Assembly: GCA_951406725.2 (NCBI GenBank)
Contig: OX597818.1
Coordinates: 117,118,001 to 117,182,000, forward strand
Reading direction: 5' to 3'
From: Octopus vulgaris
Lineage: Eukaryota
Length of the DNA stretch: 64,000 nucleotides
Positions 1-61,847 of this stretch are shown piece after piece. The position numbers and the translations under genes were made by a program. The notes beneath the pieces were generated by a model. It was not told the DNA's origin. It did no database searches and saw only the letters and a list, made by a program, of their open reading frames with translations. Every line of letters begins with the position of its first letter. The first letter of the stretch is position 1.

Positions 1-81
1 ACACATGTTTCAACTGCACTGATTAGTAAACATTGCATTTGAAATCCTACTATAATACCGGTGCAGCTTCTTCAGGGATTT
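1..81 (-). ncRNA. Type I hammerhead ribozyme motif in PLE 3' UTR (runs off window edge)
   Basis: Minus strand reads AAATCC-CTGAAGA(75-69)-AGCTGCAC...GTGCAGTT (8-bp stem II, 68-61/19-12)-GAAAC(11-7)-ATGT-GT, then the window ends. It lies about 140 nt downstream of the GIY-YIG stop. Confidence 0.8.
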
Positions 82-30267: not shown

Positions 30268-31842
30268 TAAATAGATACATAGATACATAGATACATACAT
30301 ACACACATACATGTATACATACATACATACATACATACATACATACATACATACATACATACATACTATACATACATATAAATATAGGACTCGCTGGTTT
30401 TATCTCATACCATCTGTTTCTTCACCTTGTTCCTTTATCTTTTGTGAGCATCGATGCGTTATTTCTCTTGGTTGCTTCGCAGCTTTGATTTCGTCCAAAC
30501 ATGACGTAAGTATAAAATTTTCAAATTTTACAGAAGTGATAAAAAAATATATATATATAGTGTTAACAAAACTTTGCTTTTCCTATCGAAAAAGTTTGAA
30601 AAGCTATTGAAAAGTTTTACATCTGTTTACCTTTGTTTTATTTGGAGCTTAGGTGGAACGAAAAAAATAAAATGTTAATTACAAGATATTTGTAAAAGTG
30701 CAATAAAGATCATGTTAGATAAGAAGGTGCTTCAATGCATTTCTTGCCCATTAAAGTAAAAGAGGAGATAAATGTGATATTCTAAATAAATCAATGAAGT
30801 GTTTTCTTAGAAAAAGAAATTATGAGAGCACGAAAGTAATCAAGAAACATGATAAGGTAATCACTGAACACGGTCGACTCCCGACCAGATATTCTAAAGC
30901 ATTTGACTTAATTTAGTGTGTTGTGGATTTCATTAGATACTAATAAACAAGTCAATAGTAATCTTCCCACACAGATGCTTATTTAGTTGATTAATTCAGC
31001 GATATATGTTCCCTAATAAGAGATTTAAACAATTATTGAAAGATTTTAGATCCGATTATCGTTACTAATAACTAATGGATAGATTTGGACGAATATTTAA
31101 GTCGTATATATCTATTTAACTTTTGTCTTAAAAATTAAATAAAATTCTCCATCTTCGTCCAGGAAGACACCTTCATGTTTTTTCGTAAAGAAAATGCCTT
31201 CACTTGTTGCCCTGGGAAACACACTTTGTAAATGAAAATAATTTTTTCTCTTCCTTCGAACAGTTATAATTTGATTCCTTTTGAATCGTATCGTCCAAAT
31301 GCCTTCCGATACGAGCAAAACATAAATATAGATAATGGTGGTTGTATAGTTATAAATATAAATGTATGTGTGTTGTGTGTGCCTGCGTGTGCATATATAA
31401 TAGGCATAGCGACGGAAAAGAAAGATAAAGTGAATATGACTGTGAGAAAACACTCAAAAATAACAGCCATATTTGAAACTTAGAAGTCTAAAGTCATACA
31501 AATAATGTAGCTTTATTCATATACAAAGCAACTCATGAACGTATAAAACAATAACTTATTAAATTCATACATAGAACGTAAAAGTAACTATGAAAAAATC
31601 TGGATAGATAAATAATTGTATAAAAAATGAAATAACACAAAAATAACATAAAATAACATAAAATGAAATGAAATATAGGCGAAGGAGAGACTGTGAGGTA
31701 AGTAGCTTGCTTACCAACCACATGGTTCCGGGTTCAGTCCCATTGCGTGGCACCTTGGGCAAGTGTCTTCTTCTCTAGCCTCGGGCCGACCAAAGCCTTG
31801 TGAGTGGATTTGGTAGACGTAAACTGAAAGAAACAAGTCGTA

Positions 31843-31885
<43 letters not shown>

Positions 31886-31889
<4 letters not shown>

Positions 31890-32424
31890 AAACAAGTCAA
31901 AATAGAAAATGCTAAAATAATTTTATAAAGAACATTTCAGTACCGGTTTCCTTCTACCTCTTAACTTTATCACTAATGCTTTTTAGTAAAACACCTACGC
32001 AAATTCCATAAACAAACCTCTCAATAGAAATATTCTCCTGAATTGAACTGCAACTGCTAGCCGTCACTGACCATTCAAAATACAACAATCAAGGCACTCC
32101 CAAATTTTTCCACCCCCTCTCCTCTTCAGCCTTCTTCTTCTTCTACCCTACCAAGAATTCACAACGACCTCGAACACACAAGTGCAAACAAGGGAGTCAG
32201 AGAAAGGCAGAATGCCACTTATATTTGAACACTACTATACAAATATTCCTTTAAAAAAACTTTTCTTCTAATTTTTCTAAATTTAATTATTTAATCGTTA
32301 CAGTTGAAAAGGTCTCAAAATGACCGAAACCGGTACTGAAATGTTCTTTATAAAATTATTTTAGCATTTTCTATTTTGACTTGTTTTTTCATATATATCA
32401 ACTCGTGTGTTCCTTTTCACCCTT

Positions 32425-32428
<4 letters not shown>
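31886..32428 (+). mobile_element. Fold-back PLE-type insertion in (TA)n
   Basis: Perfect 65-bp inverted repeat 31886-31950 / 32326-32390 and a 38-nt tail; possible GIY-YIG C-terminal remnant (RKFH..KYSPELNCNC*) at about 31998-32060. Confidence 0.85.
32296..32343 (+). ncRNA. Minimal type I hammerhead motif, U3-A8 core variant
   Basis: CGTTACAG-TTGAAAA-GGTC-tcaaaat-GACC-GAA-ACCGGT-A-CTGAAATG. Stems I and II pair, stem III is the palindrome ACCGGT, and the triplet is GUA. Confidence 0.75.
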
Positions 32429-32488
<60 letters not shown>

Positions 32489-33117
32489 GTGTGTATATGT
32501 TTGTGTGTCTGTGTTTGTTCCCCCAACATTGCTTGACAACCGATGCTGGTGTGTTTACGTCCCCGTAAATTACCGGTTCGGCGCAAGAGACCGATATAAT
32601 ATGTACTAGGATTACAAAGAATAAGTCCTGGGGTCGATTTACTCGACTAAAGGCGATGCTCTAGCATGGCCACAGTCAAATGACTGAAACAAGTAAAAGA
32701 GTAAAAGAGTAATACATATAGCGTAAAATAAAATAGCCGAACAGAAAGATAACCACAATCACTAGGAGACTACTCGTTAGTATCTATTATTCAACTGATG
32801 CGGGGGAAATATTTCAGGGAATGCCCACAAAGAAGCGACGAATATTAACATTTTATAACTGACCGTAGTCAGTGACCTGATGTGTTCTTAAATGTCTAAG
32901 CTTTCTATATCATGAAATATCTTTTATCTTTTACTGTTTTGAGCCAAAAGCTTTAGTGGCTGACAGTATGGCTAAGGTCATGTGTGAAAGAGTCACCATA
33001 AACAGTAATGGCCTCATTCCAGTTTCTTAATGGCTTCTGCTGAGAATTGATGTCTTCTCAGAAAGAGCGTCGTTGGATGACACAGACATCTACTGTTCAA
33101 AAATCAGGGAGCCACTC

Positions 33118-33165
<48 letters not shown>

Positions 33166-33518
33166 TGAGAATTATGCGGACAAACAAATCAGAAAAATTT
33201 ATTATATTTTATATATTTAATGAGTATGATGTGTATAATTGTCTCTATACACGTTCAGCTTGATCCTTCTTACAGCCTACCTTTACCTTGTGGAATCGAT
33301 CCCCTGTAGACAGATCGGATTCTAAGTTTGAATCTTTTGAACACTGAGTATTGTCTATATGAAGAATCTCTGGATCTCACCTGTCGATTATACATCTGTG
33401 TGTGTGTGTATGTATATCTATCTATATCTATATCTATCTATCTATCTATATATATGTGTGTGTGTGTGTGCATATATATGTTTGTGTTTGTGTATGTGTG
33501 TATATATATATATATGTG

Positions 33519-33852
33519 TGAAGTCCTGTTAAAGGCCTTTGATATGCAGGACGCTGACTGGGAGAAGAATGCCTGTCATCGCCACAGATGGAGGAAGCAG
33601 GTTAAGGAGGGGGATCGACACTTTTGAGAGAGCACGTATCCAGCATGAAGAACTTAGGCGAGCTGTGCGAAAGCGCACGGCTCGTATAGTGAATGGGGAA
33701 AGCTTGGTCTGCAATGTTTGCAGTCGTGTGTGCTGGTTAAGAGCAGGGCTCATTAGCCACCAACAGAGCCGCAAATGCAAAATAGTCCTAGAGCGCACAA
33801 TGTTCCTGAAGGTCGGCAATGGTCTTTCTCGGTCACGTGTGGACGGCCATCA
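33519..33852 (+). mobile_element. RTE-clade LINE 3' end with C2H2-like finger
   Basis: LKAFDMQDADWEKNACHRHRWRKQVKEG / IDTFERAR..LVCNVCSRVCWLRAGLISHQQS; one frameshift; microsatellite tail. Confidence 0.85.
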
Positions 33853-33858
33853 TATATA

Positions 33859-33918
<60 letters not shown>

Positions 33919-34200
33919 TAAAACAGCAGCGCACCAGGAAGTTACAATCAATTGTATTAGTTGTGTAATAGTGTTGGTTGTCGCATGAATTTTGTTTATT
34001 TGTATTTTACTCATATTTGATATTTGTGCATATTCAAGGGCCAGAGGATAGAGGACTTGTTGGGGTCTTGCATCAGAAGAAGATGCGTTAAGTAATGCAA
34101 ATGCTACGCCAAATGAGTTAATATTTGTAGCACAAGTAGACGCAGATATTTATTTGATGGATAAATTTGGTAGAAGTAGTGGGCTTGAAATGTCTTCATC

Positions 34201-34231
<31 letters not shown>

Positions 34232-34953
34232 CGATGAGAAACTATGACTCTGAGAGGAGCTTACAGTTCTACTTTGTGTCACTAAACTAGATCCAGAATG
34301 ATATGCCACAAAAATAAACAAACCAAAGTGAGAGAATATTGGCAACGATGTAAAAAGATATGAGTTTGGAAGAAGGCGAGTTTAGATTTGAAATAGATTT
34401 GAGAAGTCTGATGATCCAAATGACAGCGAAAATAAAAAATGTCCAGAAAGACCACAGTGATGATAATGATGATGGCACCATCATCCTTCTCGCCTTCTTC
34501 ATCCTCCTCCACCTTCTCCTCCTCATCTTCATCATCATTATCACGGCAGTAGCGGAATCAATAACATGATCATCCTTTATCGTCGTTATCGCCCTGGAGA
34601 TAGTAACCACAAATACGATCCCGACAGTGATGAGGAAGATAACAACTATGTCAACATTTGTTAGCTTTAGAATCTCACAAAGATAACTGTTAGGAGAAAG
34701 AATATGAGAAAATGAAATTAACCAGAAGCTACATGAGACGATACATCCACACGAACACACTCACGCACGCACGCACGCACGCAGTGATACATATTAAAGT
34801 TTTGGTTAGGCATAAAGATACTAATAACCTGGTGTTAGAACAGAATTTACCAATGCTTCAGAATAAAGCATTAGCCGAGTATGGAGTGTAATATGAACTT
34901 TAAAGAAATGACAAGAGAACAAGACGTACGTAATCAATTTCATATACATGAAC

Positions 34954-35008
<55 letters not shown>

Positions 35009-35017
<9 letters not shown>

Positions 35018-35368
35018 TGAGGGAGATAAATTAATATTAATTTTAATATCAATTTAAAACCAGTAGTCTAGCATACAAAAAATCTGAGAAATCAGAGAAA
35101 ATTCTAATATATGTGTATATTGGCAGAGCAAGACTGCTAGGTAGTCGGCCGTATGCTAGAAATAGATCATCAACGATCAAACTACAAAGAAAGTTCTCTA
35201 GAGGAAAAATTCAGCGAACACCAGAACCAAATTTGGCGGGCAGGACAGATGAAAATTTATATAAAAAACAAAATGAATAGCATACCTCGGTTTCGGCCTT
35301 TAACAAAATCGTTGATGATCTATTTCTAGCATACGGCCGACTACCAAGCAGTCTTGCCCTGCCAATAT

Positions 35369-35373
<5 letters not shown>
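35009..35373 (-). mobile_element. Fold-back PLE-type insertion in (TA)n with a half hammerhead
   Basis: Arms at about 35112-35177 and 35308-35373, tail of about 100 nt on the left; minus strand GGCC-GAAAC-CGAG-GTA-TGCTA at 35298-35278. Confidence 0.8.
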
Positions 35374-35425
<52 letters not shown>

Positions 35426-36461
35426 ATAAATAATATATATATAAGCATATATACACGCATACATGGGCATGCCTACATATACATGGATATATGGGTCCAG
35501 GACGTCAAAAATACGTGAACAAAATGAGAAACGAGATAGGCAACATAAAGAACATTCTCTTCATCAGTTGTCTCCTGTTTTATCTACTCCGCGTTCGATG
35601 GTAAGGACAAGACGCGACTTCGTTGAAACAGTTATTCCCACAAAGTAAATTATATAAAATTTGAGATTTTTTGCGGAGGGTTAAAGTGGTAACAAAAAAC
35701 AGAACTGTAAGAAGTAAACAGTAAAAACAAACGGTGAGGGTTGTTAAGCGATAACGAGGTGAAGTCGTGAACGCTGGAAAAACGAGCTTACGATTGTAAA
35801 ATCAATGATAAGCAGTGTCTTTATGGGAAAAAATATCAGTTACTACTATGATATTGTTGATGAAACTCGTTCTTTGTCTACCTACTTACTCCCTTTGTGA
35901 TTTTGGTTAATGGAATAATTATAAAAATGAATCTTTTAAATTTAACTAAATTCTATATTTTTTATGCAGCTGAAGATTGCTCTACATTTTAAAACTGATG
36001 TAATACTTGCATTGTTCAATTAAATGGGGTTGCATGAAACGATCGTACTGCATTACTTCTGGATATCCTTGTTGCTTATTCTGATTATAATCACCACATT
36101 TTGAATTATATGGATAATGCCATACCAAATGAACACAAGCGTCTGCTTGTGTTCATCAATTTCGTCCTTCACCTTGGCCAAAATCAACTGATTAAAACGA
36201 ACGAAATAAGAACAAGGAACTCTTAGCCATCCATCATAACAATAAAAAGTCCTCGAAATCGTCGTTCTTCTGCAATTTGTCTTTTCTTTCAAACTTTACT
36301 TCATACTTCTTATAATCTCTCTCTCTCTGTTTCCTTTATTATTTTCATCTTTCTCTCTCTCCGTCCCCTTTAACTTTTTCACTCGTCCTAATACATCTCA
36401 TTATTCCATCTATGCAGGAAAACTTTCATGCATTTATTGACACAGCAATATAAGCCATCTA

Positions 36462-36462
<1 letters not shown>

Positions 36463-36492
<30 letters not shown>

Positions 36493-36990
36493 TACCTCCT
36501 CACCCTAACTTCTCTTCCGCTACTTCTACTGCTCCTTCTTCTTCTTCTTCTTCTTCTTCTTCCTTCTACCTCTTCTTTTCTTGTTCTTGTTCTTGTTCTT
36601 CCTCCTCCTCCTCCTCATTTTCCTCTTCTCTTCCTCCACTCATTCTGCTTCCTTTTCTTCCTTTTCTTCATTTGCTTTTTCAAATTTCTTCAAGTTCTTC
36701 GTACTCTTACTCTCCTTCCTCATCTTCTTTTACTTCTTCAATTTCTTCTACTGCTCTTTTTTCAATTTCTTCAATTTCTTCTTCATCTTATCCCCTTCTT
36801 CCTCATCTTATTTTTCCATTTCTTCTTCTTCTAGTTCTCCTCCTCCTCCTCCTCCTCCTCCTCTACCGCTTCTGTTTCTTTTTATCCTCCTCTTCCTCTC
36901 CTTTCTCTTCTTCTTCTCCTCCTTCTACTGCTTCCTCTTCTTCTGCTTCTTCTTCTGCTTCTTCTTCTTCTTCTTCTTCTTCTTCTCCTT
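36463..36990. repeat. Pyrimidine-rich (CAT)/(CTT)/(CCT) low-complexity tract
   Basis: Direct reading; it explains ORFs 36581 and 36672. Confidence 0.9.
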
Positions 36991-37417
36991 CACAACCCCC
37001 CCCTCTAGAATCATGTGTATCGTACTCATTCGCCACCAGAACATTTCTCTTCTCTTAACTGACTCACATCACCCCCACCCCCATCATCCCCCCGCCTCCA
37101 CCATCACTGCTTTTTCTTTACTCCCCCTCAGTACTGCTTACCTGCTAAGTCGATATCATTGACCCCAGTGTTCAGGTGATAACTTTTTTAAACGTCCCAC
37201 CCCCACCCCCACCGAAAGGATGTAAGGCAACGTCGACCTCGGCAGACTTTGAACTCAAGAGCACAAAGACGGACGAAATGCCACAACGTATTCTGCCCGT
37301 CGCCGTAACGATTCTACCAGCTCACTGAAGCAGCAGCAGCAGCCGCAGTAGTAGTATTGCAGGATGTTATGTGTGTAGTATTTACTTGTTATACTACTAT
37401 TGCTCCTGGTGATGCAG

Positions 37418-37470
<53 letters not shown>

Positions 37471-37486
37471 GCTGCTACTACTACTG

Positions 37487-37539
<53 letters not shown>

Positions 37540-37950
37540 GCTACTGCTACTACTACTCTCAATACTACTTTTACCACCACCAACACCACCGCTGCAACCA
37601 CCATACCACCATCACTACTACTACAGCTACTACTAGTACGACGACGACCACCACTGCTACTACAACCACCACTACAACCACTACCACCACCACCATCTAC
37701 ACCTCTAATACTACTACTACTAGTACTACTACCAACAACAACAACACCACTACTCTCTCCTTACTACTATTTATACCCACCACCGCTACTACAACCACCA
37801 CCACCACCACCACAACTACCACTACTACTTACTACTGCTATTACTACAACCTCGTTTGCCTTAATACTACTTTTACCACCACCACCACCACCATCACCAT
37901 CATCACCGCCGCCATTACTACTACTACTACTACTACTGCTACTACTACTA
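37418..37950. repeat. (CTA)n / (CCA)n compound trinucleotide repeat
   Basis: Direct reading; it explains ORFs 37357, 37389 and 37400. Confidence 0.95.
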
Positions 37951-38499
37951 CAACGAGGACGATGGCGGCGAATTCAACAACGCTGACGATGATGACGTCC
38001 ATGACACCCACGCAGGAAGGGACACCTATGATTTATTTCTTTATTTTTTTGTTTGTTTTTATCTCGCGGCCTAGGTGACAAGTTGCTTTTGAGAGACAAT
38101 AAACGAAAGATAGAATGGCGATGACGACGACGGCGACGGCAGCGGCAACGAGCACAACCAGTGCGGAAACGAGGGAGGCGGCGCCGATCGCAAAAATCCA
38201 CGATGATGACGGTGATTATAAAACAATGCTGAGAGCAATGATGTGCTGACGGCGGCGGCGGCGGCGGTGGTGGTGGTGGTGGTGGTGGTGGCGGTGTTGA
38301 GAAAATTGATGATGATGTGAGAGCGATAGAGAAAAATGAGGAGCTGGAGCTGGTGGGGGTGGGGTGGAAGACGTGAAAGTTTTCCTTTTTATATATATAT
38401 ATAAATATATATATATATTTTCTTTTATATCTTTACTTTTGCAAATGAAAGAAAAATCAGTCAAAATCAGATCGAGGCTAAAGCTGTTCCAGCAATTGT

Positions 38500-38830
38500 T
38501 TTCTACCCCCCTATTCATCCATGTGACGCAACGAAATTCTGTTGCGGTCCGGTAGGAATCACCATTTTAAGCAAAATATCAACATCGCCAACGATATTAC
38601 TGCTCCCCATAATTACAACACAAACTACAACAATACAAAAAAACCATGCATTCTACACTTTCATTAGCCACACAGCAACAGTAATACAACCGACAGCAGT
38701 AATTTCTAACAAAAAGCAATCACAATACGAAATGCTTGTTACTATCCAGCTACGCACCTAGTCGCCATTCAGTAAAAAATTGACCAATGAAATTACTGCG
38801 TGAATTAACCAATGAAACGATAGGAAATGT
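38500..38830. promoter_or_regulatory. Candidate Pol II promoter (twin CCAAT boxes, CRE-like site)
   Basis: GACCAATGA and AACCAATGA with CCAAT at 38784 and 38809; TGACGCAA at 38524; CpG-containing, TE-free surroundings. Confidence 0.4.
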
Positions 38831-39027
38831 CTAGCAACCACTACCACAAAAATGAAGACTACTACCGCTAAAACCGCCACTATCACCACATGTATTACTA
38901 TTACTGTGTACCACAACTACCGCTACTATCTTTGATAAATTGATTTTTTTTCCTCTCAGCCTGTTCCCCCTTTACTCGCGCGTCCCATCCATTTTCGGTG
39001 AGAAATACGTAAAACCACCGCCACCGT

Positions 39028-39077
<50 letters not shown>

Positions 39078-39566
39078 TTACTACTACTACTACTACTATG
39101 ATGACGGCGACGGCGACGAGCTAAAGGAGAAGCAAGACACCGACAACTGTTGCGATAAAAACGCATCATGGTTCGTCCTGTTTCACTTACTCCCTCCGTA
39201 TACTCCGTAACTCCTACTGGCCTGCCTGTTCGGTTTTACTGCTAATCGTGAATCAGTGAAATAATATCACAATCTCCACCACTGTAGAATGGTTAGCAGA
39301 ACACATTAACTATACACTCGCATTATTTTTGCAGACAACCACCCACACGTTTGAACAGGGAAAAGAAAAAAAACAAAAAAACACAACACACACAAATGCA
39401 TGTGCATCCTAACACATTTATCAACGCTTGTAGCAAACAAACGATTCTGCATGCATGCGCCTCCATGTATGAGTACAGAGAAGCACAGACAGACAGACAC
39501 ACATAAATATAAGTTCATATATCTGTGTGTGTATAAATATATATGTATGTATATGTGTATACACAA

Positions 39567-39617
<51 letters not shown>

Positions 39618-39709
39618 TACGTATATTTATATATATATAGGGAAATTTCACAAAAAAATGAAAGACGAAGTCAGGTGTTGTAGACAGCAAATAGAGTTAT
39701 GTATGTATG

Positions 39710-39744
<35 letters not shown>

Positions 39745-39749
<5 letters not shown>

Positions 39750-39960
39750 ATAGAAATGGTAAGAAAGCAAAGGAATGAAAGATATTATGTAAATAGAGGA
39801 ACTTATCTGTAAAAATAATATGTGACAATTATTCGGTAGCCATGATAAAACTCCGAGTTTCGGATGTCGGGGCGGAAATCCACGCCGGCATGAAGAGATG
39901 CCGGCGTGGGTTTCTGCCCTGACATCCGAAACTCGAAAAATTGTCACATATTATTTTTCC
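39745..39960 (-). mobile_element. Fold-back PLE-type insertion in (TA)n with a split hammerhead
   Basis: Arms 39811-39891 and 39898-39958, 6-nt loop, tail of about 66 nt on the left; TGAAGA-GATG..CATCC-GAAAC on + and CATCC-GAA-ACTCGGAGT-T on -. Confidence 0.75.
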
Positions 39961-40427
39961 ATATATATATATACGTATGTATATATGTATACATACATAT
40001 ATATAAATATATAATATATAAACATATATATATAATATATGCGTGTGCAGGTGTGTGTGTATAAAGTTATATGTATGTATGCATACATGCATATATATAT
40101 ATGTGTGTGTATGTGTGTATGTATACATGTATATATATAAATATATATTTGTATATGTAAATATTATATATAAAGAAAACATACTTATATACACATAAAT
40201 ATATATATGTGTGCGTGTGTGTATGTGTGTGTGGGATATGTATGTGTAGACGGGCATGCGTGTATATTACACGTTAAATACACTATTTCCAATTACCTCT
40301 TGTACCACTAGCATCAAAGATGTTCCTAACATGACTAACTAGACTTTTATCTTATCAGTCATAATTCTCATAAAATTACTTCAATAAATTTTTCTAATTC
40401 TTAAGAGTCTCTTTATTTTTATACATA

Positions 40428-40469
<42 letters not shown>

Positions 40470-40872
40470 TGTGTGTGTGTGTGTGTTTGTGTGTACAAAG
40501 GTGTGTATATACACGATCATACACGTAGATGCTTCGGAAAAGTATCTCAAGAATGCAACGAGCAGTATCTAAGTTCAAGTAAAAGTTAAGAAAGTGCTCA
40601 ACGAAAACTGATACGGGCCACGATATCCTGAACTAGATTTCAGTAAACTCATTACAGAAACTACTCTCCCCCTCTCTCTTAAAATCACTATTTTTCTGGC
40701 TTCGATTGTATATATGTATATATATATACATGTGTGTGTGTGTGTAAATATATACGGACATTCATACAGACGCACGGTCGGGTGCCCGCGTACACAAGAA
40801 TATAAAATAATATATTTTGAAATATATATCTCCTGTGTTTCATCCACCTACCACACGCACACGAACACACGC

Positions 40873-40952
<80 letters not shown>

Positions 40953-40968
40953 TTATATATATATGTGT

Positions 40969-41192
40969 GTGTGTGTATGTTTCTGTGTTTGTGCTTGTCC
41001 CCCCAACATCACTTGACAACCGATGCTGGTGTGTTTATGCCCCCATAATATAGCGGTTCGGCAAAAAAGACCGATAGAATAAGTACTAGGCTTACAAAGA
41101 ATAAGTCTTGGGTCGATTTGCTCGACTAAAGGTGGTACTCCAGCATGGCCACAGTCAAATGCCTGAAACAAGTAAAAGAGTAAGAGTAAAGA

Positions 41193-41193
<1 letters not shown>
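40969..41193 (+). mobile_element. SINE family C 3' half
   Basis: Matches 60090-60293. Confidence 0.9.
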
Positions 41194-41249
<56 letters not shown>

Positions 41250-41808
41250 TTGATGCATGTATATATATATATATGTATATGCATTTATGCATGTATATAT
41301 ATACACACTCACACACATATACCTATATGCATATATATATATATATATATATATCATATACATACGCACACACACACACATATATATGATACACAGACAA
41401 GCGCATATATGTACACACACACACATACAGTGCCATAGTAAGAGATTTCTCGTCCTTTCCTCAATTCATTCTTTCGTTCCACTATATGCTCCGGAATACA
41501 CGAAATACACCAGTATATACACATGTCCATATATGGAAATAATGGGATAGTCTCTCTTTCATTTAATAGCAAAAGCGTTTCTCTCTGTATGAATTTACAA
41601 CAACAAAATCAGTAAGAACATCCCACAAGCGTATGTAGCAAAAACGAAAGTAAATATGCAGAGTAATATACACGTGTTGTGTGCATGAGGTTTGGTTTGT
41701 ATGTGTGTGTGAGTGTCTGTGTATTTATCGCTATGAATTCATGCATGTATATACAAGTATGCATATATGCAAGTTTGTATATACTCGCAAATCTGTAGAT
41801 ATACATTA

Positions 41809-41844
<36 letters not shown>

Positions 41845-41984
41845 GATGGAAAGAAAATAATATATGCCGCTAGTAGATTTTATTAGTATAAGTGTTACTA
41901 GTAAACACACGTAAGCATTGAACGACGTCGTGCCTCTCTGTAACTATTATAGATGTTTACCTGATACATAGATATACATGTGTG

Positions 41985-42015
<31 letters not shown>

Positions 42016-42204
42016 ATTGGGTGGTTGTGTGTGAATGTGTGCGCGTGTGTATACGGATCCTGCTTTAATATACGCATATATTCCGAGATCAATTATTAGC
42101 AAACAAACTGGTGCTTGCTTTATGTTCATGTATTTTTCACTTATGAATTCTTTGTCAGATATAAGTACATGTGTGCGTACGTGCGTACGTATTGATGTAT
42201 GTAC

Positions 42205-42266
<62 letters not shown>

Positions 42267-42508
42267 TGTATGAATATATGTATGTACATGCGTTTGTGTA
42301 TATGTAGCTTCAAGTGTGCATATCAGTATTAACGTATATTATTGTATTCGAGTAAAACGATAGCTATGTCTCTCAGAAAGACAACGAACGTTATCACCAA
42401 CCGCAAAACCACATAAAAACACCCACGCCTTCTGACTGCACACACAACAACGCGTGTGAACATACGAACACATACGCCCACGCACACACACAGACACATA
42501 CACACACG

Positions 42509-42554
<46 letters not shown>

Positions 42555-43530
42555 AATACATATATATATATAAATGTATATACATACACTTATACACATG
42601 AATATACTAGTGCGTAGGCGTGTGTGTATGCGTGTGTACATAGAGACAACCTATCTTCTCTATATCGGAAAATGTAAGCAAACATAGATTGAAAGAATAT
42701 ACAACTAGAAAAATCACAATTGTAGCTTTCTAACGAACGACCAAGATCAATAAGTAACATCTATAATCTTATAAGGAAGAAGAAATGTCCAGGTTTCGTG
42801 CCCCACCATATCCTCTCATATTAATCACCATTCGTAATATCACTGTGGCGTACTGGCCGAACCGTTATCACGTCGGACAAAACGTATAGAAGCGTTTCGT
42901 TAAGTCTTCACGTTCTGCGTTCAAATGCCACTGCGGCCGACTTTGTTCTTCATGCTTCGGGTTCGACAGAATAAAAATAAGTATTAATTAAAACCATACG
43001 GCTGAGGAAATCGACTTCTCCCCACCCACTCGATATTGTGGCCTTGCGCCAAAATTTGAAACCATCATTTGAATATAGGTGCAGTATGATTGAATGGTTG
43101 CCAATCATGATGTTTCTGGATCAAATCCTACTATGGAACATATTAGGATATTGAAAAATCTTCCTTAGCCTCTGGTGAAGCGTTCCAAGTGAGTGAAGTA
43201 GGTTCGAGGAAATATGTAGAAATGTAAATGGTATAGATTGTACCTGTTATTCGAAAGCTACACCCTTGCCACACATTGTGAGTTGCGAATTCCACAAGAA
43301 TGTTAGGGATATTCTTATCTCTGGATAAACCCAGTAACCTGGAATTAAATCAGGAGCAGGAGAGTTGGCTCAAGTATTTGAACGCTCACCTTCAATCGAG
43401 GGTAATACGCCACCACCACCACCACCAGTAACAACAACACCATCTCCACCGCCATCGACTCATTGTTATTTGCATTATCAGTAACCTTACTAATATTAAT
43501 ATCATTATGGCCAAGAAGAAGCCGACGTGC

Positions 43531-43937
43531 TTGGCAGAACCGTTAGCACGCCGGGCGAAATGCTTAGCGGTATTTCGTCTGCCGTCACGTTCAGAGTTCA
43601 AATTCCGCCGAGGTCAACTTTGCCTTTCATCCTTTCGAGGTCAACTTTGCCTTTCATCCTTTCGAGGTAGATAAATTAAGTACCAGTACGCACTGGGGTC
43701 GATATAGTCGACTTAATCCGTTTGTCTCTCCTTGTTTGTCCTCTCTGTGTTTAGCCCCTTGTGGGTAGTAAAGAAATAGGTATTTCGACCGTCCTTATGT
43801 TCGGATTTCAAATTCCTTCGAGGTTGACTTTGCCTTTCGGGGTAGATAAAATAAATACCAGTTGTGCACTTTGGTCAATGTAATCGACTTACCCTCCCCA
43901 CATATTTCTGGCCTTGTGCCTATGGTAGAAAGGAATA
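43531..43937 (+). mobile_element. SINE family B dimer
   Basis: Two units; internal 27-bp duplication CGAGGTCAACTTTGCCTTTCATCCTTT. Confidence 0.9.
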
Positions 43938-44433
43938 TTTCTGCTTCTATTTCCTACAACATAGTCAAATATATTTCACTGGTTTTGGTCTTACAATAGA
44001 TACCTCGCTTCTTTGAAATGTTTCCTATTCTTTCTTCGAATTGAAGTATCGATTAGGTGTTTATTTTCCCCTGGAGAAAATTACTGCATGTAAGAATCCT
44101 AACTATCCAAAATTTTGCCCCAGTTGTTTGTAACAGTATATTCTGAAAGACTTAGTCGAATGTTCGACTATTTTCTGTAAATATTATACACTAATGGCTC
44201 TCTTCTCGGCATACGAAATAAACATTATGTGAATGCATAATCTCTCATCGCATTTCTCTAGTCGAGGGCTAGAGTTCGAATGAACGACGCTGTCTTTTAT
44301 TTTTTCTTTCAATATTGCCTTATCTTCAAGTCACACACCTAGCTGTACCCATATTTAGATAAGATGAGGCATCAACATATAATATGTTGCTTTATTTATT
44401 TACGCTTACCGTGTGCCCTGCAGTACCATCTTC

Positions 44434-45748
44434 TTCGTGAAGGTACCCAAATGTAACCGGAAACGTTCTCTATAGAACAAACTCGTTGTAGCTCAGGCTT
44501 CGGCCCCTAGAAGCCACTGATGCGACCTTCAGGCACCAGTCTGCCGACTGGCGTCGTCCTTTGCGGTCGTATTGCCACGTGGTGCGTCTTTGTTTTTCAG
44601 TGCTTCTCTCCTGTTTCTCAATTTTTGCGATGGCTGAAACGAAGGAGCAGCGTGCTTCCGTGAAATTTTGTTTTCTGCTGGGTAAAACGGCGGCCAAAAC
44701 AGTTGTCATGCTTCAGACAGCTTAGAAGGACGCTGCCATGAATAAAAAACCCAAGTTTGCAAGAGAAATACTTTAGAAATGGTAACTTGTCGCTTGAAGG
44801 TGGTGAGCTGGCAGAAACGTTAGCACGCCGGGCGAAATGCGTAGCCGTATTTCGTCTGCCGTTACGTTGTGAGTTCAAATTCCGCCGAGGTCGACTTTGC
44901 CTTTCATCCTTTCAAGATCGATTAAATAAGGACCAGTTACGCACTGGGGTCGATGTAATCGACTGAATCCGTTTGTCTGTCCTTGTTTGTCCTCTCTGTG
45001 TTTAGCCCCTTGTGGGTAGTAAAGAAATAGGTATTTCGCCTGCCGCTACATTCTGAGTTCAAATTCCGCCGAGGTCGACTTTGCTTTTCATCCTTTCGGA
45101 GCCGATTAAATAAGTACCAGTTACGCACTGGAGTCGATGTAATCAACTAAATCCGTTTGTCTGTCCGTGTTTGTCCCCTCTGTGTGTAGCCCCTTGTGAC
45201 TAGTAAAGAAATAAACTTGTCGCTTGACGACCACTCCCGTTCAGTGCGACCATCGATCTATGAACTGATCATAGAAGACCGTCACCGAACAATTAACAAA
45301 CTTGATATAACTAGGTGCCTTGGAGTTTCTGCTAACTAATTTTGGACGAGGAATTGTAAATGAAAAGAGTTTCAGGAAAATTTGTGCCTCGCGTGCACAT
45401 GGAAGATCAAAAGCAATCACGACTGAATGTGTGTCGTGAGCTAAAAGAAGAGTTGGAAGTTGACCCGGACCCTTTTTCGAAGGTCATCTCTGGTTAGGAA
45501 AGCTGATGCTACGGAACCTAGAAATGTCGAAGAGGTGAAAAAAAAAGAAAAGTGAAGGGCGTTAAAAGGCATCACTTTGCAAGAGTTCCAGGACTGCTTC
45601 GAACAGTGGAGAACGCGTCTGGACCGATGCATTGCTTCAAAAAGAGAATACTTCGAATACTTTGAAGGCGATAAAAGTGTAAACGTCTAAAACTCAGTGA
45701 ATAAAATAATGCTGAAAAATACTGGTCTCTTTTGGGTATTCCCTCTTA
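44434..45748 (+). mobile_element. Decayed, internally deleted mariner transposon
   Basis: ATG at 44630: MAETKEQRASVKFCFLLGKTAAKTVVMLQTA; MKRVSGKFVPRV..DQKQSRLNVCREL..SKVISG*ES*CYG; ITLQEFQDCFEQWRTRLDRCIAS..YFEGD; imperfect TIRs around GTACCCAAA / TTTGGGTAT. Confidence 0.9.
44798..45213 (+). mobile_element. SINE family B dimer inserted in the mariner
   Basis: 14-bp TSD AACTTGTCGCTTGA at 44784-44797 and 45214-45227. Confidence 0.95.
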
Positions 45749-47049
45749 ATTCCACTTCAGTGAGTGATGTTGTAGCGTCAGCTGAAAAACCCTGTTGCTG
45801 TATAGCAATCAAACACAACCTGCTCACGGCTTTCAATCGTGATCTTTTTAGCCACTGTTGATTACAATCCTTATCTACAATAGATTTGGGCGAACTTACA
45901 TTATTATAACAATCAATATGGCAGCGAGTTGCCAGATTCTTGTGCACGCCGGACAAAAGGCTTAACATTTCTCCCAGCTTCACGTTCGCGGTTCAAATTC
46001 CTCTGAGGTCAGGCTTGAGATTCTTCCTTTCAGGGTCGGTGAAATACAGTACAATGTCTGCGTGTCTCTTCTCTCCAAATTTCAGGGCCTGTATTGTTTC
46101 TTCTGGGCCATTACCTTCTGAGTTCAGTTCCTGCTGGTGGCAGTCTTACCTTCCATTGTTTCGAAAGGCGAAAATGCCAGTTAAGAATTTTATTTTATTT
46201 TCTCCTTTCGAAGATATCGACGACATCTCATCGTCAAGATCTATGACTTTGTACTTCAAGTATACGCTATTATTTAAGGCAGCGAAATCACAGAACCTTC
46301 AGAGTTCGGAAAGGGTGCTTTGTTATACATTCTCCGGCCCGTTATGTTCTGAGTTAAAACCCAACTAGCACCAAGTCTGCTCTACGTCCAGTCAACTACT
46401 AAAGAGGTCAATATATTTATTCTCAATTCCGAGAAGTGTCGAGAAAATAATTGATAGTTGAGCGCTACGTTCGATCTAGTCGACCTAACTCCACCTTCTC
46501 CAACTGTTGATTTCGTGCCAAAATCTGAAACCGTTATTATTTGTAATTATTTATTATATTTTAGATTATAAATTGGCGATCTAATTATAAGCTATTGTTT
46601 GCAGAGAGTGTTAGATGGATCCTCTACTTCTGTTTGGGCGGCTGTATTACTGTTATCATCTCTGTGTATCACCGCCTAAACGCTTGTTTGTTAGTTTTCA
46701 TCAGATTTGGAAAGAGCAAATTGTTTCGCAGTTCAATATATAATATGAAAACTACTACACGTTCCGATTAATTGGTCTTTTCCAGTTTCTGATTCTTGTT
46801 GAAGCAACACTTTTATAGTCAGATATTGATTTTGGTATATATAATTTCTTTTCCTAAAATTGTTTTCTAAAAATTTCTGCTATATTCGGACAGTATCGTA
46901 TCTAATCATTAGTTTTTGCCACATGAAATTTTCGAATGTTCCCAACTGTGCATTCTTGGGATCAAGATTTCTCTCCCGGTCCGTCGCAGATTACTCATTT
47001 TTGTCAGCTGAGTGGACTGGAGCAACGTGAAAATGAAGTGCTTTGCTGA

Positions 47050-47097
<48 letters not shown>

Positions 47098-47258
47098 CGA
47101 TGGGCTTCTTTCAATTTCCGTCTACCAAATCCACTCACAAAGCTTTGGTTGGCCCGAGCTATTTTAGAAGACACTTGCCCAAGCTGCCACGCAGTAGTAC
47201 TGAACCCGGAACCATGTGGTTGGTAAGCAAGCTACTTACCACACAGCCACTCCTACGT
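47098..47258 (-). mobile_element. SINE family C 5' half
   Basis: Reverse complement of the GTAGGAGTGGCTGTGTGGTAAGTAGC head. Confidence 0.9.
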
Positions 47259-48556
47259 ATTAACCATACTGTTGTTCCTTCCTTATTTATGTTGTGCTTA
47301 ATCTCCATACTGTGTGTATCATTGTAATATTTCCTAGAATCATTGAGCGCCATGCGAGTCATTTTACTTCCATCACTGTGCAGGACATCTACCGCGTATT
47401 CAAATTCACGCTTCTATAGGTCTGAATTAGGTTGTGGAATCCTATCTTCTCTACCGTTTTATTGCATATTTAATATAGTTTATTCAATTGTTAACACGTA
47501 AGCGTAAATATAATAGAGCTAAACTCTGTTACATCACGGGGTATCAACTGAGCATTATTTGTTCAATCCAACTGTATACTGCCTATAGGATCTTTTAACT
47601 TACATTGTTCTCCAAGAGAAAACTTTCTAAAGCGCTCTCGGCTAATCATCTATGCTAACTCACCTTTCGTATGCTTTTATTTAAGAAGTTGAGATATTGA
47701 TATATGTACCATTGACATCATGTTCAGCCAGCATGGAATATGGTTGAATTCTAAGAGTAATATAAATCACAATGCTAGACATAGATGAAATCTGACTACA
47801 CTGGCTTTCAAAATGGCTGGAACTGAAAGTATTTGAATATTAACAGTTTTATTGTTAAGTTGATTGGCAGCGTTTATATTACTATTATTATATATTACAA
47901 TTATTATAAATAGTATCTTCCTCTCTATTATTAAAATGTCTGCTATCTTTTACGGCATTACTAAAATTGCAACTCTCATTCTTTCCATATTCGATTTATA
48001 GCTTCGTCAACAAATGCACTTGTTGTTCTGTTTTTGTTCGCATCGTTGAATATAACTTTAGCATATATAATTATAGTTAAATGTATAAATGGAAAGTGGA
48101 GGCTGCTAGGAACGTTAGTCTATCCTCTGTCTAATTGTTATATAGTTTGTCATTACACAACACGTTACTTACACCCTGTCCGTCTGTCTGTCCCTCTCTC
48201 TCTCTCTTTCTCTCTGTGTATCTGTTTGTCTCTCTCTTTCTCTCTCTCGTATGCCTAACTTTCTCTGCGAAAGGCTTTTTGAACGACGCTGGTGACAGTG
48301 GTTTTACTAAGATTTAATATTTACAGAAAATAAATGCTCTTCTGAGAGTCGTTTTGAGAAAATCCTCAACGTAGCTCAGAACAATTATTTATTTTCAGAA
48401 AAGAAAAATATATTTCAGGTGCTGAGTGATGTCTACAACCGAGCAGTGCAAGTACATACTGGACGGCATTAAGTGAAGGACAGCAACTCACTTGCCTTAT
48501 CTCACGAACAGACACGCTCCATGACAACTCTGAGTGTGCGATATATAAATGCACTT

Positions 48557-48786
48557 AAGGCGGCGAGCTGGCACAAACGTTAGCACGCCGGGCGAAATGC
48601 GTAGCCGTATTTCGTCTGCCGTTACGTTCTGAGTTCAAATTCCGCCGAGGTCGACTCTGCCTTTCATCCTTTCGGGGTCGATAAATTAAGTACCAGTTAC
48701 GCACTGGGGTCAATATTATCGACTTAATCCGTTTGTCTGTCCTTGTTTGTCCTCTCTGTGTTTAGCCCCTTGTGGGCAGTAAAGAT
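48557..48786 (+). mobile_element. SINE family B monomer
   Basis: AAGGCGGCGAGCTGGCA..GAGTTCAAATTCC..GCCCCTTGTGGGCAGTAAAGA. Confidence 0.9.
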
Positions 48787-49297
48787 TTAGACATTCAAAT
48801 GTACTTGGCCTTGAGTCACTCCGAAAGCAGGGTCGCCTGCTTATTCGCCTCAATACATCTGACATATACGCCGTAGCACACAATTTTGGCGACTTCGAAA
48901 TTTTCGCATCACTTACTCCGCACAGAATGAAGGTTTGATAACGGTGCTGTTTCAGAATGGCCTGAGCTTCGAGATTCAATCGATCTTCCTAGACACGGAC
49001 GTTAAAAGGTGGTGGTGCACAAAATCACAATTGAATTATATGAGCCTACTGACAAAAATATTGGTTTTCTAATAAAAATTAATAAAATGGTACTTAAATA
49101 TAGAACAGCTTCAATGAACTTGATGAGGGCTAATTGTAGGATGTCTAGACAAAGTAAAATCCCTGTCAGCATAAAAAACATTTTTATTTTTAAAATAACT
49201 TTTGTGGTAGATAAGAGTATAATAAAAAAATTAACAATTCTTAAAAGAAAAAAATAACATAACTGCACACACAAACACACACACACACATATATATA

Positions 49298-49450
49298 TTC
49301 TTTTATTTGTTTCAGCCATTTGACTGCGACCATACTGGAGTACCGTCTTTAGTTGAACAAATCGACCCCCAGGATTTATTTTTGTAAGCCTAGTACTTAT
49401 TCTATCGGTCACTTTTTTCGAACCACTATGTTTCGTGGACGCAAACACAG
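49298..49450 (-). mobile_element. SINE family C 3' half
   Basis: TTGTTTCAGCCATTTGACTGCG..AAATCGACCCCCAGGA..TTATTCTATCGGTC. Confidence 0.8.
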
Positions 49451-49690
49451 ACACGCAAGCATACACCCACACACACACATATATAAAGACGTTTATCGTG
49501 CATAGCATTATGTGAAGTAAATGAAATGTATTTGCCGTTATCGCTATTTCATTTGTTGTTGACAAACTTCAAATAAAATAAGCAATGCTAAAAATATCAA
49601 ATAATAGTTTCACATCGTGAGAGGTCTGTGAAGTAACGTACAAATAAAATAACGAAAACATACAGAATTTTAAGAGACAGTGTCTGAAAT

Positions 49691-49961
49691 CAACAATTGC
49701 AGCCTGGAAGGTATTTCTAAGCCATTTAAGAAACAAACAAAATCCGTTAGATTCACTTCAGCATTTAAATTTAATTTGTCAAAATATTTTCCTCACTTTG
49801 AGACTACGACCTGTTCACTGGCAAAATTGCGTGATTGAATCTAACGGATTTTGTTTGTTTCTTAAATGGCTTCTTATAAACACCTTCCACGCTGCAATTG
49901 TTTTCGTTCCAGCACACGATCTCAGATCAGGTCACTTGCTATGCAAGTACATCTACGTAAT
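49691..49961. mobile_element. Fold-back PLE-type insertion with an 11-bp TSD
   Basis: Arms at about 49692-49754 and 49836-49901, tail of about 60 nt; TSD GTGTCTGAAAT at 49680-49690 and 49962-49972; same family as 15434. Confidence 0.85.
49775..49825 (-). ncRNA. Hammerhead-like motif, G3-C8 core variant, partly decayed
   Basis: TTTGCCA-GTGAACA-GGTCGT-agtctcaaa-GTGAG-GAA-AATATT-T-TGACAAA. Stem I pairs 6 of 7, stem III is palindromic, stem II is imperfect and the triplet is UUU. Confidence 0.5.
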
Positions 49962-50944
49962 GTGTCTGAAATATTCCTCCAGATAACATACTTCTAACGT
50001 AGAAAACATTCTCTAAGTATTACACTGGCCATAACAAATTCTGTTACCATTCCATATGGTAACAATTATTTATGTATGCAAAGAACCCTGAGTTAGGATA
50101 TTATTTTGTTATAATAAGTAACTTTGGGAGATAAAGAATCACAGTCAACCACTCATGAATTTAAGCAGCAAAAATTATTTACGATTTAAACATCGCTACA
50201 TGTCCAGGTTAAGTCACATGATAACATTTTGCGTTGTTTTAGAATTTTCTTAGAATTCTTAGAAAGGAGAATTTACATCCTAAGTCAGTTACCCCAGCGA
50301 AGATTTTTCCACATGTAAGTGAAAACGAACCTGTTAAATACAAACGAACACAGATTTATTATAATCGTCGCTGCTTCGTGTAGGCCTCAATAAATTCTTT
50401 AAGACAATATGATGAACTGATAATTTTTGCTATACATTTCAATAATCCTCTGCAATAAATGTGAAATAAATAAGGAAATATAGACCAAATGAAGAACGGG
50501 AATGATGAGAGGAAGAAATAATGAATTAATAAAAGAAATAGAATTCAGAAAAACGATAGTTTAACGCTCACAGAAATGTAGAAGGTGTTGCGTATTTCAT
50601 ACGCATTCATCTTTCTGCTTTTGGCGATAAAGTATAATATAATATCAGATATTCTGCAATGTCTGGCCATAAAATGTACACCAGACACTATTCACTGTGT
50701 CTAACATTACAAATTATTTTCTGGAGGTATAAAATATGTCTGGCAATACGTCTGAGCATATAAACATGCCGGCTGATATAAATTATATATAGCTGCGTTA
50801 TATAAAGCTGGCAATATATATTGCAAGCTAAACTGGGCGAAACATCCAAGTGACTATCGATAATATTCTTGTTTAAGGATGATTCATTTATGCTCGACAA
50901 AAGTGTAGAGCAACCTATCAGATTGTCTTATTATAACTGAACAC

Positions 50945-52126: not shown

Positions 52127-52513
52127 GGATGGAAGCACTCCGTCGGTTACGACGACGAGGGTTCCGGTTGATCCGAATCAACGGAATAGCCTGCTCGTGA
52201 AATTAACGTGTGAGTGGCTGAGCACTCCACAGACACGTGTACCCTTAACGTAGTTCTCGGGGATATTCAGCGTGACACAGAGAGTGACAAGGCGGGCCCT
52301 TTGAAATACAGGTACAACAGAAACAGGAAGAAAGAGTGAGAGAAAGTTGTGGTGAAAGAGTACAGCAGGGATCAGCACCATCCCTGCCGGAGCCTCGTGG
52401 AGCTTTAGGTGTTTTCGCTCAATAAACACTCGCAACGCCCGGTCTGGGAATCGAAACCGCGATCCTACGACCGCGAGTCCGCTGCCCTAACCACTGGGCC
52501 ATTGCGCCTCCAC
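52127..52513 (-). mobile_element. Full-length young SINE family A
   Basis: 11-bp TSD TAAACGGTAAT at 52116-52126 and 52514-52524. Confidence 0.95.
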
Positions 52514-56549: not shown

Positions 56550-56581
56550 TACCTGAAGATAGTCTCTTCTACTCTGGGCAC

Positions 56582-61140: not shown

Positions 61141-61231
61141 GGTCACCTATGGACGCACGTTTCGGAATTAGGTTGGAAGGAAGAATATAGAATTATACTC
61201 TACCAACCGTTTTCCTCTTCAGCATAGGACC
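61141..61231 (-). ncRNA. Type I hammerhead ribozyme
   Basis: CCTATG-CTGAAGA-GGAA..GGTTGG..CCAACC..TTCC-GAAAC-GTGC-GTC-CATAGG; all core residues present; predicted cut at 61152/61151. Confidence 0.9.
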
Positions 61232-61584: not shown

Positions 61585-61675
61585 GGTCCTATGCTGAAGA
61601 GGAAAACGGTTGGTAAAGTATAATTCTATATCCTTCCTTCCAACCTAATTCTGAAACGCGCGTCCATAGGTGACC
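61585..61675 (+). ncRNA. Type I hammerhead ribozyme
   Basis: CCTATG(61588)-CTGAAGA(61594-61600)-GGAA..TTCT-GAAAC(61653)-GCGC-GTC(61662-61664)-CATAGG; stem III ACGCGCGT is a perfect palindrome. Confidence 0.88.
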
Positions 61676-61847
61676 AGATATTGATTGATTTTCGTTACTG
61701 CTTCCTCTCTGCCTGTGTGGATTGTTTTCAAGTATTTTGGTTTTTCTGGGAGTCCCTTTTTAAAGTAAAAGAAATAGCTAACGTCTTTTGGCTGCTATTT
61801 CTAAACTTCGGTATGTGGTAAAGCAAATCTTTGCTGAACCCTAATTA

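What the first reader, a model, noticed from the sequence alone, without database searches (positions are those of the whole stretch)
32296..49825. Three different 3:8 core base pairs among hammerheads in one window
Seen: cores read CUGAAGA (75-69, 61594, 61222), UUGAAAA (32304-32310, repeated in the decayed relative at 3165-3159) and GUGAACA (49818-49812). Established: C3-G8 is a tertiary Watson-Crick pair in the active hammerhead and compensatory swaps partly rescue activity. Inference: U3-A8 and G3-C8 are double compensatory changes implying selection for the active fold. Searches for CUGANGA would miss these families.
Basis: partly seen in the sequence, partly recalled or inferred. Interest (0 to 1): 0.75.

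Follow-up and report, generated by a model that had tools for sequence, protein, structure and literature searches.

The report
Flipped core pair in Penelope hammerheads
Several jumping-gene families in this animal genome carry small hammerhead-shaped RNAs, predicted to cut themselves, whose central base pair differs from family to family yet nearly always still pairs, including a flipped G-C form in over 5,000 copies that I found described only as a lab-made mutant, which suggests the cutting fold is likely under selection.

Summary
Observation confirmed; interpretation partly supported. The six cores belong to five repeat families, three of them tied here to the 3' ends of Penelope-like elements (PLEs); meeting in one window reflects copy number. 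With positions 3 and 8 left free, genome-wide patterns show family fixation. Family A (32304): 1,843 matches, 99 of the first 100 U3-A8. Family B (49818): 5,106 G3-C8 against 428 single changes; its stem II pairs perfectly in the consensus and has decayed in the window copy. B has a young subfamily with an RT/GIY-YIG frame, an old G3-C8 relative, and a sister family E (55% protein identity) with U3-A8. Between B and E, 4 of 11 pairs, 3:8 included, changed on both sides and none on one side. Against: a U3·G8 wobble subfamily also spread, and cleavage is untested. U3-A8 in PLE hammerheads is published. G3-C8 I found only as an engineered partial rescue, but six key papers were unavailable, and one earlier scan note flagged G3-C8 in a phage (unchecked). 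Verdict: new variant of a known kind, interest 0.5.

The parts
32296..32343 (+). Family A minimal type I hammerhead. U3=32304, A8=32309; stem II 32311-14/32322-25; GAAA 32326-29; palindromic stem III 32329-32334; A17=32335; predicted cut 32335/32336
   Evidence: 1,843 genome matches, 99 of first 100 U3-A8
31950..32423 (+). 5'-truncated 3' end of the family A Penelope-like element, ending in a (TA)n run, with an inverted piece at 31841-31950
   Evidence: 99.4% over 533 nt to the long element in L202; L202 ORF hits RVT_1 and GIY-YIG
49775..49825 (-). Family B (subfamily B1) minimal hammerhead, decayed copy. G3=49818, C8=49813, extra G=49811; stem II 49810-06/49796-92 (broken here, paired in consensus); GAAA 49791-88; palindrome 49788-49783; U17=49782
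   Evidence: 5,106 G3-C8 genome matches
49689..49969 (.). Family B 3'-end fragment (49836-49689, minus) with an inverted truncated piece (49836-49969, plus)
   Evidence: nhmmer; 85% to the 3' end of the B2 element in L204
3132..3169 (-). Family A2 (older sister of A) U3-A8 hammerhead, decayed copy. U3=3165, A8=3160; GAAA and U16.1 lost here, present in consensus
   Evidence: endonuclease remnant in L257 75% identical to A
61588..61670 (+). Family C type I hammerhead, C3-G8 (61594, 61599), long stem II, C17=61664; G10.1·U11.1 in this copy
61146..61228 (-). Family C type I hammerhead, inverted partner of the 61594 copy (arms 60959-61343 and 61473-61857, 97% complementary); C3=61222
1..81 (-). 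Family D type I hammerhead, C3-G8 (75, 70), long stem II (68-59 / 21-12), GAAA 11-8; residue 17 and the 3' strand of stem I lie just beyond the window edge; stem I damaged in this copy
   Evidence: L209
223..534 (-). Decayed reading frame upstream of the family D hammerhead that resembles the end of a PLE endonuclease (resemblance recalled; no Pfam hit)

Best explanation
These are hammerhead motifs at the 3' ends of Penelope-like retroelements (shown for families A, B and E), each family carrying its own base pair at core positions 3 and 8, and they likely cut the element's RNA as dimers, with the pair likely kept by selection on the few master copies that transpose. Steps: (1, shown) the motif lies about 0.6-1 kb after the RT/GIY-YIG frame and, in tandem insertions, also in front of it. 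(2, predicted) Stems I and II fold in the monomer; stem III is only a 4- or 6-nt palindrome, so two motifs would have to pair through it. (3, inferred from PMC4209133 and PMC11167929) The dimer would close the 3:8 pair and cut after residue 17, probably slowly and with protein help, releasing a unit-length RNA from a tandem or read-through transcript. (4, inferred) Because the general acid is the 2'-OH of residue 8 (PMC8495972), any paired 3:8 can serve, so lineages have moved between C-G, U·G, U-A and G-C. Inserted copies then decay neutrally, as the window copies at 49818, 3165 and 75 have.
For: Family fixation with 3 and 8 left free: B context 5,106 G3-C8, 298 G3 with another base at 8, 130 C8 with another base at 3. 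A context 1,843 matches, 99 of the first 100 U3-A8. Shared B/E pattern 9,494 matches, first 100 by hand count 61 G-C, 33 U-A, 6 other. B against E: proteins 55% identical; 3' UTRs align only through simple repeats and the motif; 4 of 11 pairs changed on both sides (3:8, one in stem II, two in stem I), 0 on one side, rough chance 1e-5 (register set by the structure, so optimistic). The stem III palindrome is kept at different lengths. G3-C8 is also the majority state of an old relative G (G3 10 of 14, C8 10 of 14, both 7 of 14), which has changed N7, stem II length, palindrome length and about 25% of its 3' end. A against A2: two double changes and one single change in the A2 copy used. PLE link: A ORF hits RVT_1 and GIY-YIG; B2 hits GIY-YIG above the cutoff and has RT-type neighbours in the Atlas; the E motif lies downstream of the E frame in 22 of 30 loci. 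Contigs of 4 of 4 runs (four organism codes) show no other letter at 5% or more at positions 3 or 8 of B or A.
Against: No cleavage was measured. Subfamily F (frame about 65% identical to E) amplified with a U3·G8 wobble: of 79 G8 matches in the E context, 68 are U·G, 10 C-G and 1 A·G by hand count, so a Watson-Crick pair is not strictly required. In monomer folds residue 3 pairs with residue 17 and extends stem I (U3-A17 in A, G3·U17 in B), a likely inactive state. B, E, F and G have U17 in a UUU triplet, recalled as a slow site. The one E copy folded did not give the hammerhead stem I as its minimum-energy structure. In PMC11167929, catalytic mutants of a PLE hammerhead did not affect insertion in vitro, and no RNA-seq ends were seen at its cut site. 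PMC4209133 reports low activity for such motifs. N7, normally free, is A in 100 of 100 listed B copies, so part of the conservation within B is just shared descent. The whole B2 frame had no Pfam hit at E<=0.01 and no PDB hit. No ORF link was found for family C.
Confidence: 0.7

Rival explanations
1. The hammerhead fold, 3:8 pair included, is kept for a non-catalytic job such as recognition by the element's RT/endonuclease or RNA dimerisation, and cleavage is negligible in vivo.
For: Low in vitro activity of minimal PLE hammerheads (PMC4209133); cleavage dispensable for insertion in vitro (PMC11167929); competing 3-17 pairing in A and B; success of the U·G subfamily F.
Against: The 3:8 pair forms in the active conformation (PMC3884650, passages), so a purely structural role gives a weaker reason to keep it through two double changes. 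U4, G5, A6, A9 and GAAA are unchanged between B and E. Protein-assisted cleavage with C3G/G8C rescue was shown for another PLE (PMC11167929).
Confidence: 0.2
2. Founder effect: the 3:8 letters of each family are neutral passengers of whichever master copy amplified, and they pair by luck.
For: Copies within a family are not independent. Only about three independent changes of state are seen (A, E, B/G), and a fourth (F) is not Watson-Crick.
Against: Neutral drift should fix single, unpaired changes more often than double ones, and none was seen as a family state. G·G, G·U and G·A copies of B do not cluster on a tree (8 changes for 9 G·G rows, as low in 133 of 500 shuffles). B against E shows 4 double and 0 single changes in 11 pairs.
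Confidence: 0.08
3. The variant sites are ordinary hairpins in an AT-rich repeat that happen to resemble a hammerhead.
For: Core words are frequent in the window; Rfam gives no hit at gathering level; 2 A3-U8 and 4 unpaired descriptor hits in 800 kb look like chance.
Against: Both core boxes, stems I and II, an extra base after A9 and a palindromic stem III match the published minimal PLE hammerhead consensus (PMC4209133 text and supplement), at the expected place in PLEs, with covariation.
Confidence: 0.02

Closest known systems
Minimal type I hammerheads (min-HHR) of metazoan Penelope-like elements, Cervera and de la Pena 2014 (PMC4209133; read parts 1-2 of 4 of the text, searched supplementary file 2)
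   Same: Short stem I, palindromic stem III for dimer formation, extra base between A9 and 10.1, G10.1-C11.1, location in PLE terminal repeats. U3-A8 is reported there (about 1,300 hits in Schistosoma mansoni), and a U3·G8 core appears in its supplementary alignment (Saccoglossus row).
   Different: No G3-C8 core in the parts read or among the 9 GUGA hits of the supplement. The extra base is G in B, E, F and G, where their consensus has H. Here G-C, U-A, U·G and scattered C-G occur within one PLE lineage.
Natural U3-A8 hammerheads, Perreault et al. 2011 (PMC3088659; passages)
   Same: Natural covariation at 3:8, described there as the first seen in nature.
   Different: The passages name U3-A8 only; not PLE families and not a purine-pyrimidine flip.
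Engineered C3G/G8C double mutant (Poseidon PLE of Anolis, PMC11167929, passages; review PMC8495972, passage; PMC3884650, passages)
   Same: Same flipped pair; single changes abolish cleavage and the double change partly restores it, also in a PLE hammerhead.
   Different: Laboratory mutants. Family B carries the pair naturally, in an element with very many near-identical copies and a 755-aa open frame.
C-terminal-endonuclease PLEs with a CX2-5CxxC linker (Neptune and Nematis clades; PMC8557442, passages)
   Same: RT followed by CX2-5CxxC and GIY-YIG, tandem and inverted insertions, (TA)n neighbours, hammerhead near the 3' end.
   Different: Clade not assigned here; A is only 24% identical to B2, so U3-A8 in A and in E is probably independent (inference).

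Membership tests
Minimal type I hammerhead of PLEs | Core residues U4, G5, A6, A9, G12, A13, A14, A15.1, U16.1, H17 | tested here: met
   Present in consensus or intact copies of A, A2, B1, B2, E, F, G, C, D; lost in the window copy at 3165
Minimal type I hammerhead of PLEs | Watson-Crick pair between positions 3 and 8 | tested here: met
   B 5,106 of 5,534 counted; A 99 of first 100; E majority. Subfamily F is a U·G wobble
Minimal type I hammerhead of PLEs | Stems I and II, with G10.1-C11.1 | tested here: met
   Minimum-energy folds of A, B1 and B2 show both stems; G-C at 10.1-11.1 in A, B, E, F, G; A-U in D and part of A2; the single E and A2 copies folded otherwise
Minimal type I hammerhead of PLEs | Short palindromic stem III allowing a dimer | tested here: met
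   Self-complementary 6-mers in A, A2, B; 4-mer in E, F, G. Dimer folds pair through it for A, A2 and B2, not for B1, E or F
Minimal type I hammerhead of PLEs | Location in the terminal repeat or 3' end of a PLE | tested here: met
   A (L201, L202), B2 (L203-L206, L208), E (22 of 30 loci); weak for A2 and D; not shown for C or G
Minimal type I hammerhead of PLEs | Site-specific self-cleavage after residue 17 | not testable with these tools
   Only contigs were available for laying; they cannot show RNA ends
Rfam hammerhead families (CL00010) | Covariance-model score above gathering threshold | tested here: not met
   32304: HH9 20.9 bits against 52; B2 and C: no hammerhead hit
Penelope-like element (EN+) | [quoted passage not shown] | tested here: met
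   A: RVT_1 33.5 bits, GIY-YIG 22.5. B2: GIY-YIG 24.5 bits on the C-terminal part, RT motifs aligned to A, Atlas neighbours with RVT_1 and GIY-YIG; whole frame no Pfam hit. E: weak RVT_1 and GIY_YIG_2 below cutoff
Penelope-like element (EN+) | Partial tandem and inverted, 5'-truncated insertions with a short 3' tail | tested here: met
   L202 motif-ORF-motif plus inverted piece; inverted pairs in L203-L206; two 3' ends about 60 nt apart in B
Neptune or Nematis clade | CX2-5CxxC linker and placement in the RT tree | tested here: inconclusive
   Linker present in A, B2 and E; no reference proteins on hand for a tree

The most novel reading that the evidence does not exclude
Family B is a natural, active hammerhead with the catalytic-core pair flipped to G3-C8, not yet described in nature. 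It has been kept through at least two diverged PLE families and spread to over 5,000 copies. One PLE lineage in one genome has passed through G-C, U-A, U·G and C-G, a natural compensatory series showing that PLE hammerheads are selected for catalysis and that a purine-pyrimidine flip with no paired one-step intermediate can be crossed.
Probability: 0.4. Interest if true: 0.65.

Novelty: new variant of a known kind. Interest (0 to 1): 0.5.

Why it matters
Whether the minimal hammerheads of Penelope-like elements really work as ribozymes is open: activity in vitro is low (PMC4209133), their role is called unclear (PMC8557442) and cleavage was dispensable for insertion in vitro (PMC11167929). Covariation of a tertiary pair of the active site between sister elements is comparative evidence on that question, and the B, E and F motifs form a ready natural series for kinetics. 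A natural G3-C8 core would also widen the descriptors used to find hammerheads: CUGANGA searches and Rfam miss more than 9,000 exact-pattern motifs of this one lineage in this genome.

Tried and rejected
Window-level meaning: rejected; the sites belong to five separate high-copy families. G3·G8 as an amplified intermediate between C-G and G-C: prompted by 7 A·G hits and by G at position 8 in 36 of the first 100 G3/non-C8 matches (hand count); rejected for now because 9 G·G copies did not cluster on a tree of 77 rows (few columns, weak test); the excess of C-to-G remains unexplained. C3-G8 sister in the B context: 0 of 24 hits. Direction of change among C-G, U·G and U-A: tree of 61 rows unresolved. 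A3-U8 family: 2 descriptor hits in 800 kb look like chance; 6 of 24 pattern hits were A-U and the B-type ones looked like double-mutated copies. Search anchored downstream of the B motif: no match, the tool skips very common words. Expression: no RNA holder listed; only contigs could be laid, so no RNA ends. Whole-window Rfam scan: microsatellite miRNA noise, no hammerhead among the 150 of 193 rows shown. PDB search with the B2 frame: 0 hits. ORF link for family C: none found in 20 loci; for G none in 14 loci. Look-alike search of earlier findings by sequence: nothing. Literature for a natural G3-C8: searches and octopus search 61 found none. Not held, so not seen: Lunse 2017, Przybilski and Hammann 2007, Seehafer 2011, Hammann 2012, Martick and Scott 2006, a Nelson and Uhlenbeck 2008 paper and Weinberg 2015 (ids partly recalled); supplement file 1 of PMC4209133 was not searchable. 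Any of these may report G3-C8. PMC11014351, PMC10085705, PMC6765202 (passages) and bioRxiv 2026.07.22.740005 (part 1 of 5) added nothing on 3:8.
Full report
Observation. The window is G000:C5:117118001-117182000 of a 2.8-Gb, microsatellite-rich animal genome (earlier scan notes call it octopus-like, not tested here). All six cited cores are present. The bare words are common (9, 43 and 4 in the window), so I tested whole motifs. A strict descriptor with positions 3 and 8 free gave 24 hits in 80 position-picked 10-kb stretches (13 C-G, 4 U-A, 1 G-C, 2 A-U, 4 unpaired) against about 1.9 in shuffles. A looser version found 32304, 61222, 61594 and one unrelated hit in the window, and missed the three decayed or cut-off copies at 49818, 3165 and 75. 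Rfam calls none of them at gathering level.

Family A (32304, U3-A8). It is a young family: the 40 best hits are identical over 121 nt. A pattern with 3, 7 and 8 free has 1,843 matches, control 0, and 99 of the first 100 are U3-A8. The window copy is the last 470 nt of an element whose long copy (L202) has motif, frames, motif and an inverted piece; its second frame hits RVT_1 and GIY-YIG. The site at 3165 belongs to an older sister, A2, with U3 and A8 in at least 90% of 24 aligned copies (chosen by likeness to the window copy). A and A2 differ by compensatory changes in stem I and at 10.1-11.1.

Family B (49818, G3-C8). The consensus has a 9-pair stem I with one bulge, the core GUGAACA, one extra G, a perfect 5-pair stem II, GAAA, a 6-nt palindrome and U17. 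The window copy has lost stem II, largely by CpG-type changes. Genome-wide there are 5,106 G3-C8 matches, 298 with G3 and another base at 8, and 130 with C8 and another base at 3 (double changes not counted). Subfamilies differ in loop II, not in the core. A young subfamily B2 (40 of 40 scored hits identical over 63 nt) lies about 1 kb after a 755-aa frame with RT motifs, a CX3CxxC linker and GIY-YIG (the whole frame had no Pfam or PDB hit). An old relative G (14 matches: G3 in 10, C8 in 10, both in 7) has C at position 7, a 6-pair stem II and a 4-nt palindrome, and is 75% identical to B2 over 142 nt. So G3-C8 predates that split.

The homologous test. The blind sample turned up family E, with the same layout as B but U3-A8. 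Its motif follows its own frame in 22 of 30 loci, and that frame is 55% identical to B2 and far from A (A is 24% identical to B2). The B and E 3' UTRs align only through simple repeats and the motif. Of 11 comparable pairs, 4 changed on both sides (3:8, one in stem II, two in stem I) and none on one side; a rough chance figure is 1e-5, optimistic because I set the register by structure. The fourth stem I pair is broken in E. One pattern covering B and E has 9,494 matches, control 0; by hand count the first 100 are 61 G-C, 33 U-A, 3 C·A, 1 G·G, 1 U·C and 1 U·G.

Results against strict pairing. Subfamily F, with its own flank markers and a frame about 65% identical to E, is mostly U3·G8: 30 U·G and 6 C-G among 73 matches with its loop, 31 being U-A and 6 other; 68 U·G, 10 C-G and 1 A·G among 79 G8 matches in the E context; tree; frames. 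It spread, though far less than B or E. The order of C-G, U·G and U-A was not resolved. A suspected G·G intermediate in B did not cluster. Monomer folds put residue 3 in a pair with residue 17 in A and B, probably an off state. B avoids the G3-C17 pair that PMC3884650 implies is inhibitory, by having U17, which E shares.

The C3-G8 sites. 61222 and 61594 are inverted copies of a type I motif with a long stem II; no frame was found next to them. The site at 75-69 is a type I motif with a long stem II whose cut site lies just outside the window; the consensus stem I pairs, this copy's does not. A decayed frame upstream resembles a PLE endonuclease end (recalled, no Pfam hit).

Other samples. Contigs from 4 of 4 runs, with four organism codes, show no alternative letter at 5% or more at positions 3 or 8 of B2 or A. 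Contigs cannot show RNA ends.

Mechanism. Shown: position in PLEs, family fixation, covariation. Predicted: stems I and II in the monomer, stem III only through a second motif. Inferred from PMC4209133 (text parts 1-2 of 4; supplement file 2 searched) and PMC11167929 (passages): slow, possibly protein-assisted cleavage after residue 17 that frees unit-length element RNA from tandem transcripts. I put 0.7 on selected cleavage, 0.2 on a non-catalytic role, 0.08 on founder luck and 0.02 on chance resemblance.

Comparison with what is known. Natural U3-A8 was reported in PMC3088659 (passages) and in PLE minimal hammerheads in PMC4209133, which also notes that the standard descriptor missed it; a U3·G8 row is in its supplement. 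G3-C8 appears in what I read only as an engineered partial rescue (PMC11167929, PMC8495972, PMC3884650; passages). Searches found no natural case, but several central papers were not held, so absence from print is not established. One earlier scan note mentions G3-C8 in a phage array, unchecked.

Verdict. A real feature and a new variant of a known kind. The U3-A8 half is known; the G3-C8 lineage and the B/E/F/G series are the part worth following. Interest 0.5.

Noticed in passing
window 5677-6160, 16949-17616, 23427-24394, 44797-45343, 48557-48919, 53597-54148, 56334-56555: A 184-nt repeat in 2-3 tandem units, on both strands, about 87-90% alike. It may be the repeat with the rearranged hammerhead that earlier notes on this genome describe; not checked.
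   Followed up: no
L204:5992-6165 and window 32270-32390, runs X1 and X6: A-to-G differences are listed at 5 places in each of the two runs guessed to be RNA against 0-1 in the two large runs, and some X6 contigs read runs of G across the family A core. This looks like A-to-I editing of inverted copies, which could disable cores or seed U·G; the RNA label is a guess and no matched DNA was available.
   Followed up: partly
G000 B-family copies: Position 8 changes from C to G in 36 of the first 100 G3/non-C8 matches, almost all in older subfamilies, more than a transversion usually does; the copies do not cluster. Unexplained.
   Followed up: partly
L202:5874-7184 (minus): Family A has a separate 437-aa frame upstream of its RT/endonuclease frame, also seen in L017; function not examined.
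   Followed up: no
L124, L098, L106, L111; L066, L092; L080, L115; L100, L140; L062; L120: At least five further C3-G8 hammerhead families and another U3-A8 candidate (L120) in 800 kb of position-picked sequence; this genome is dense in such motifs.
   Followed up: no
L207:3982-7288: A different PLE-like frameshifted frame (28% identical to A) inserted among B2 copies.
   Followed up: no
window 15369-15675: Family B remnant as an inverted pair lacking the hammerhead; it gives spurious miRNA hits in Rfam.
   Followed up: partly
window 21953-22125 and 52130-52302: 173-nt inverted copies, 97% alike, 30 kb apart; probably a young repeat.
   Followed up: no
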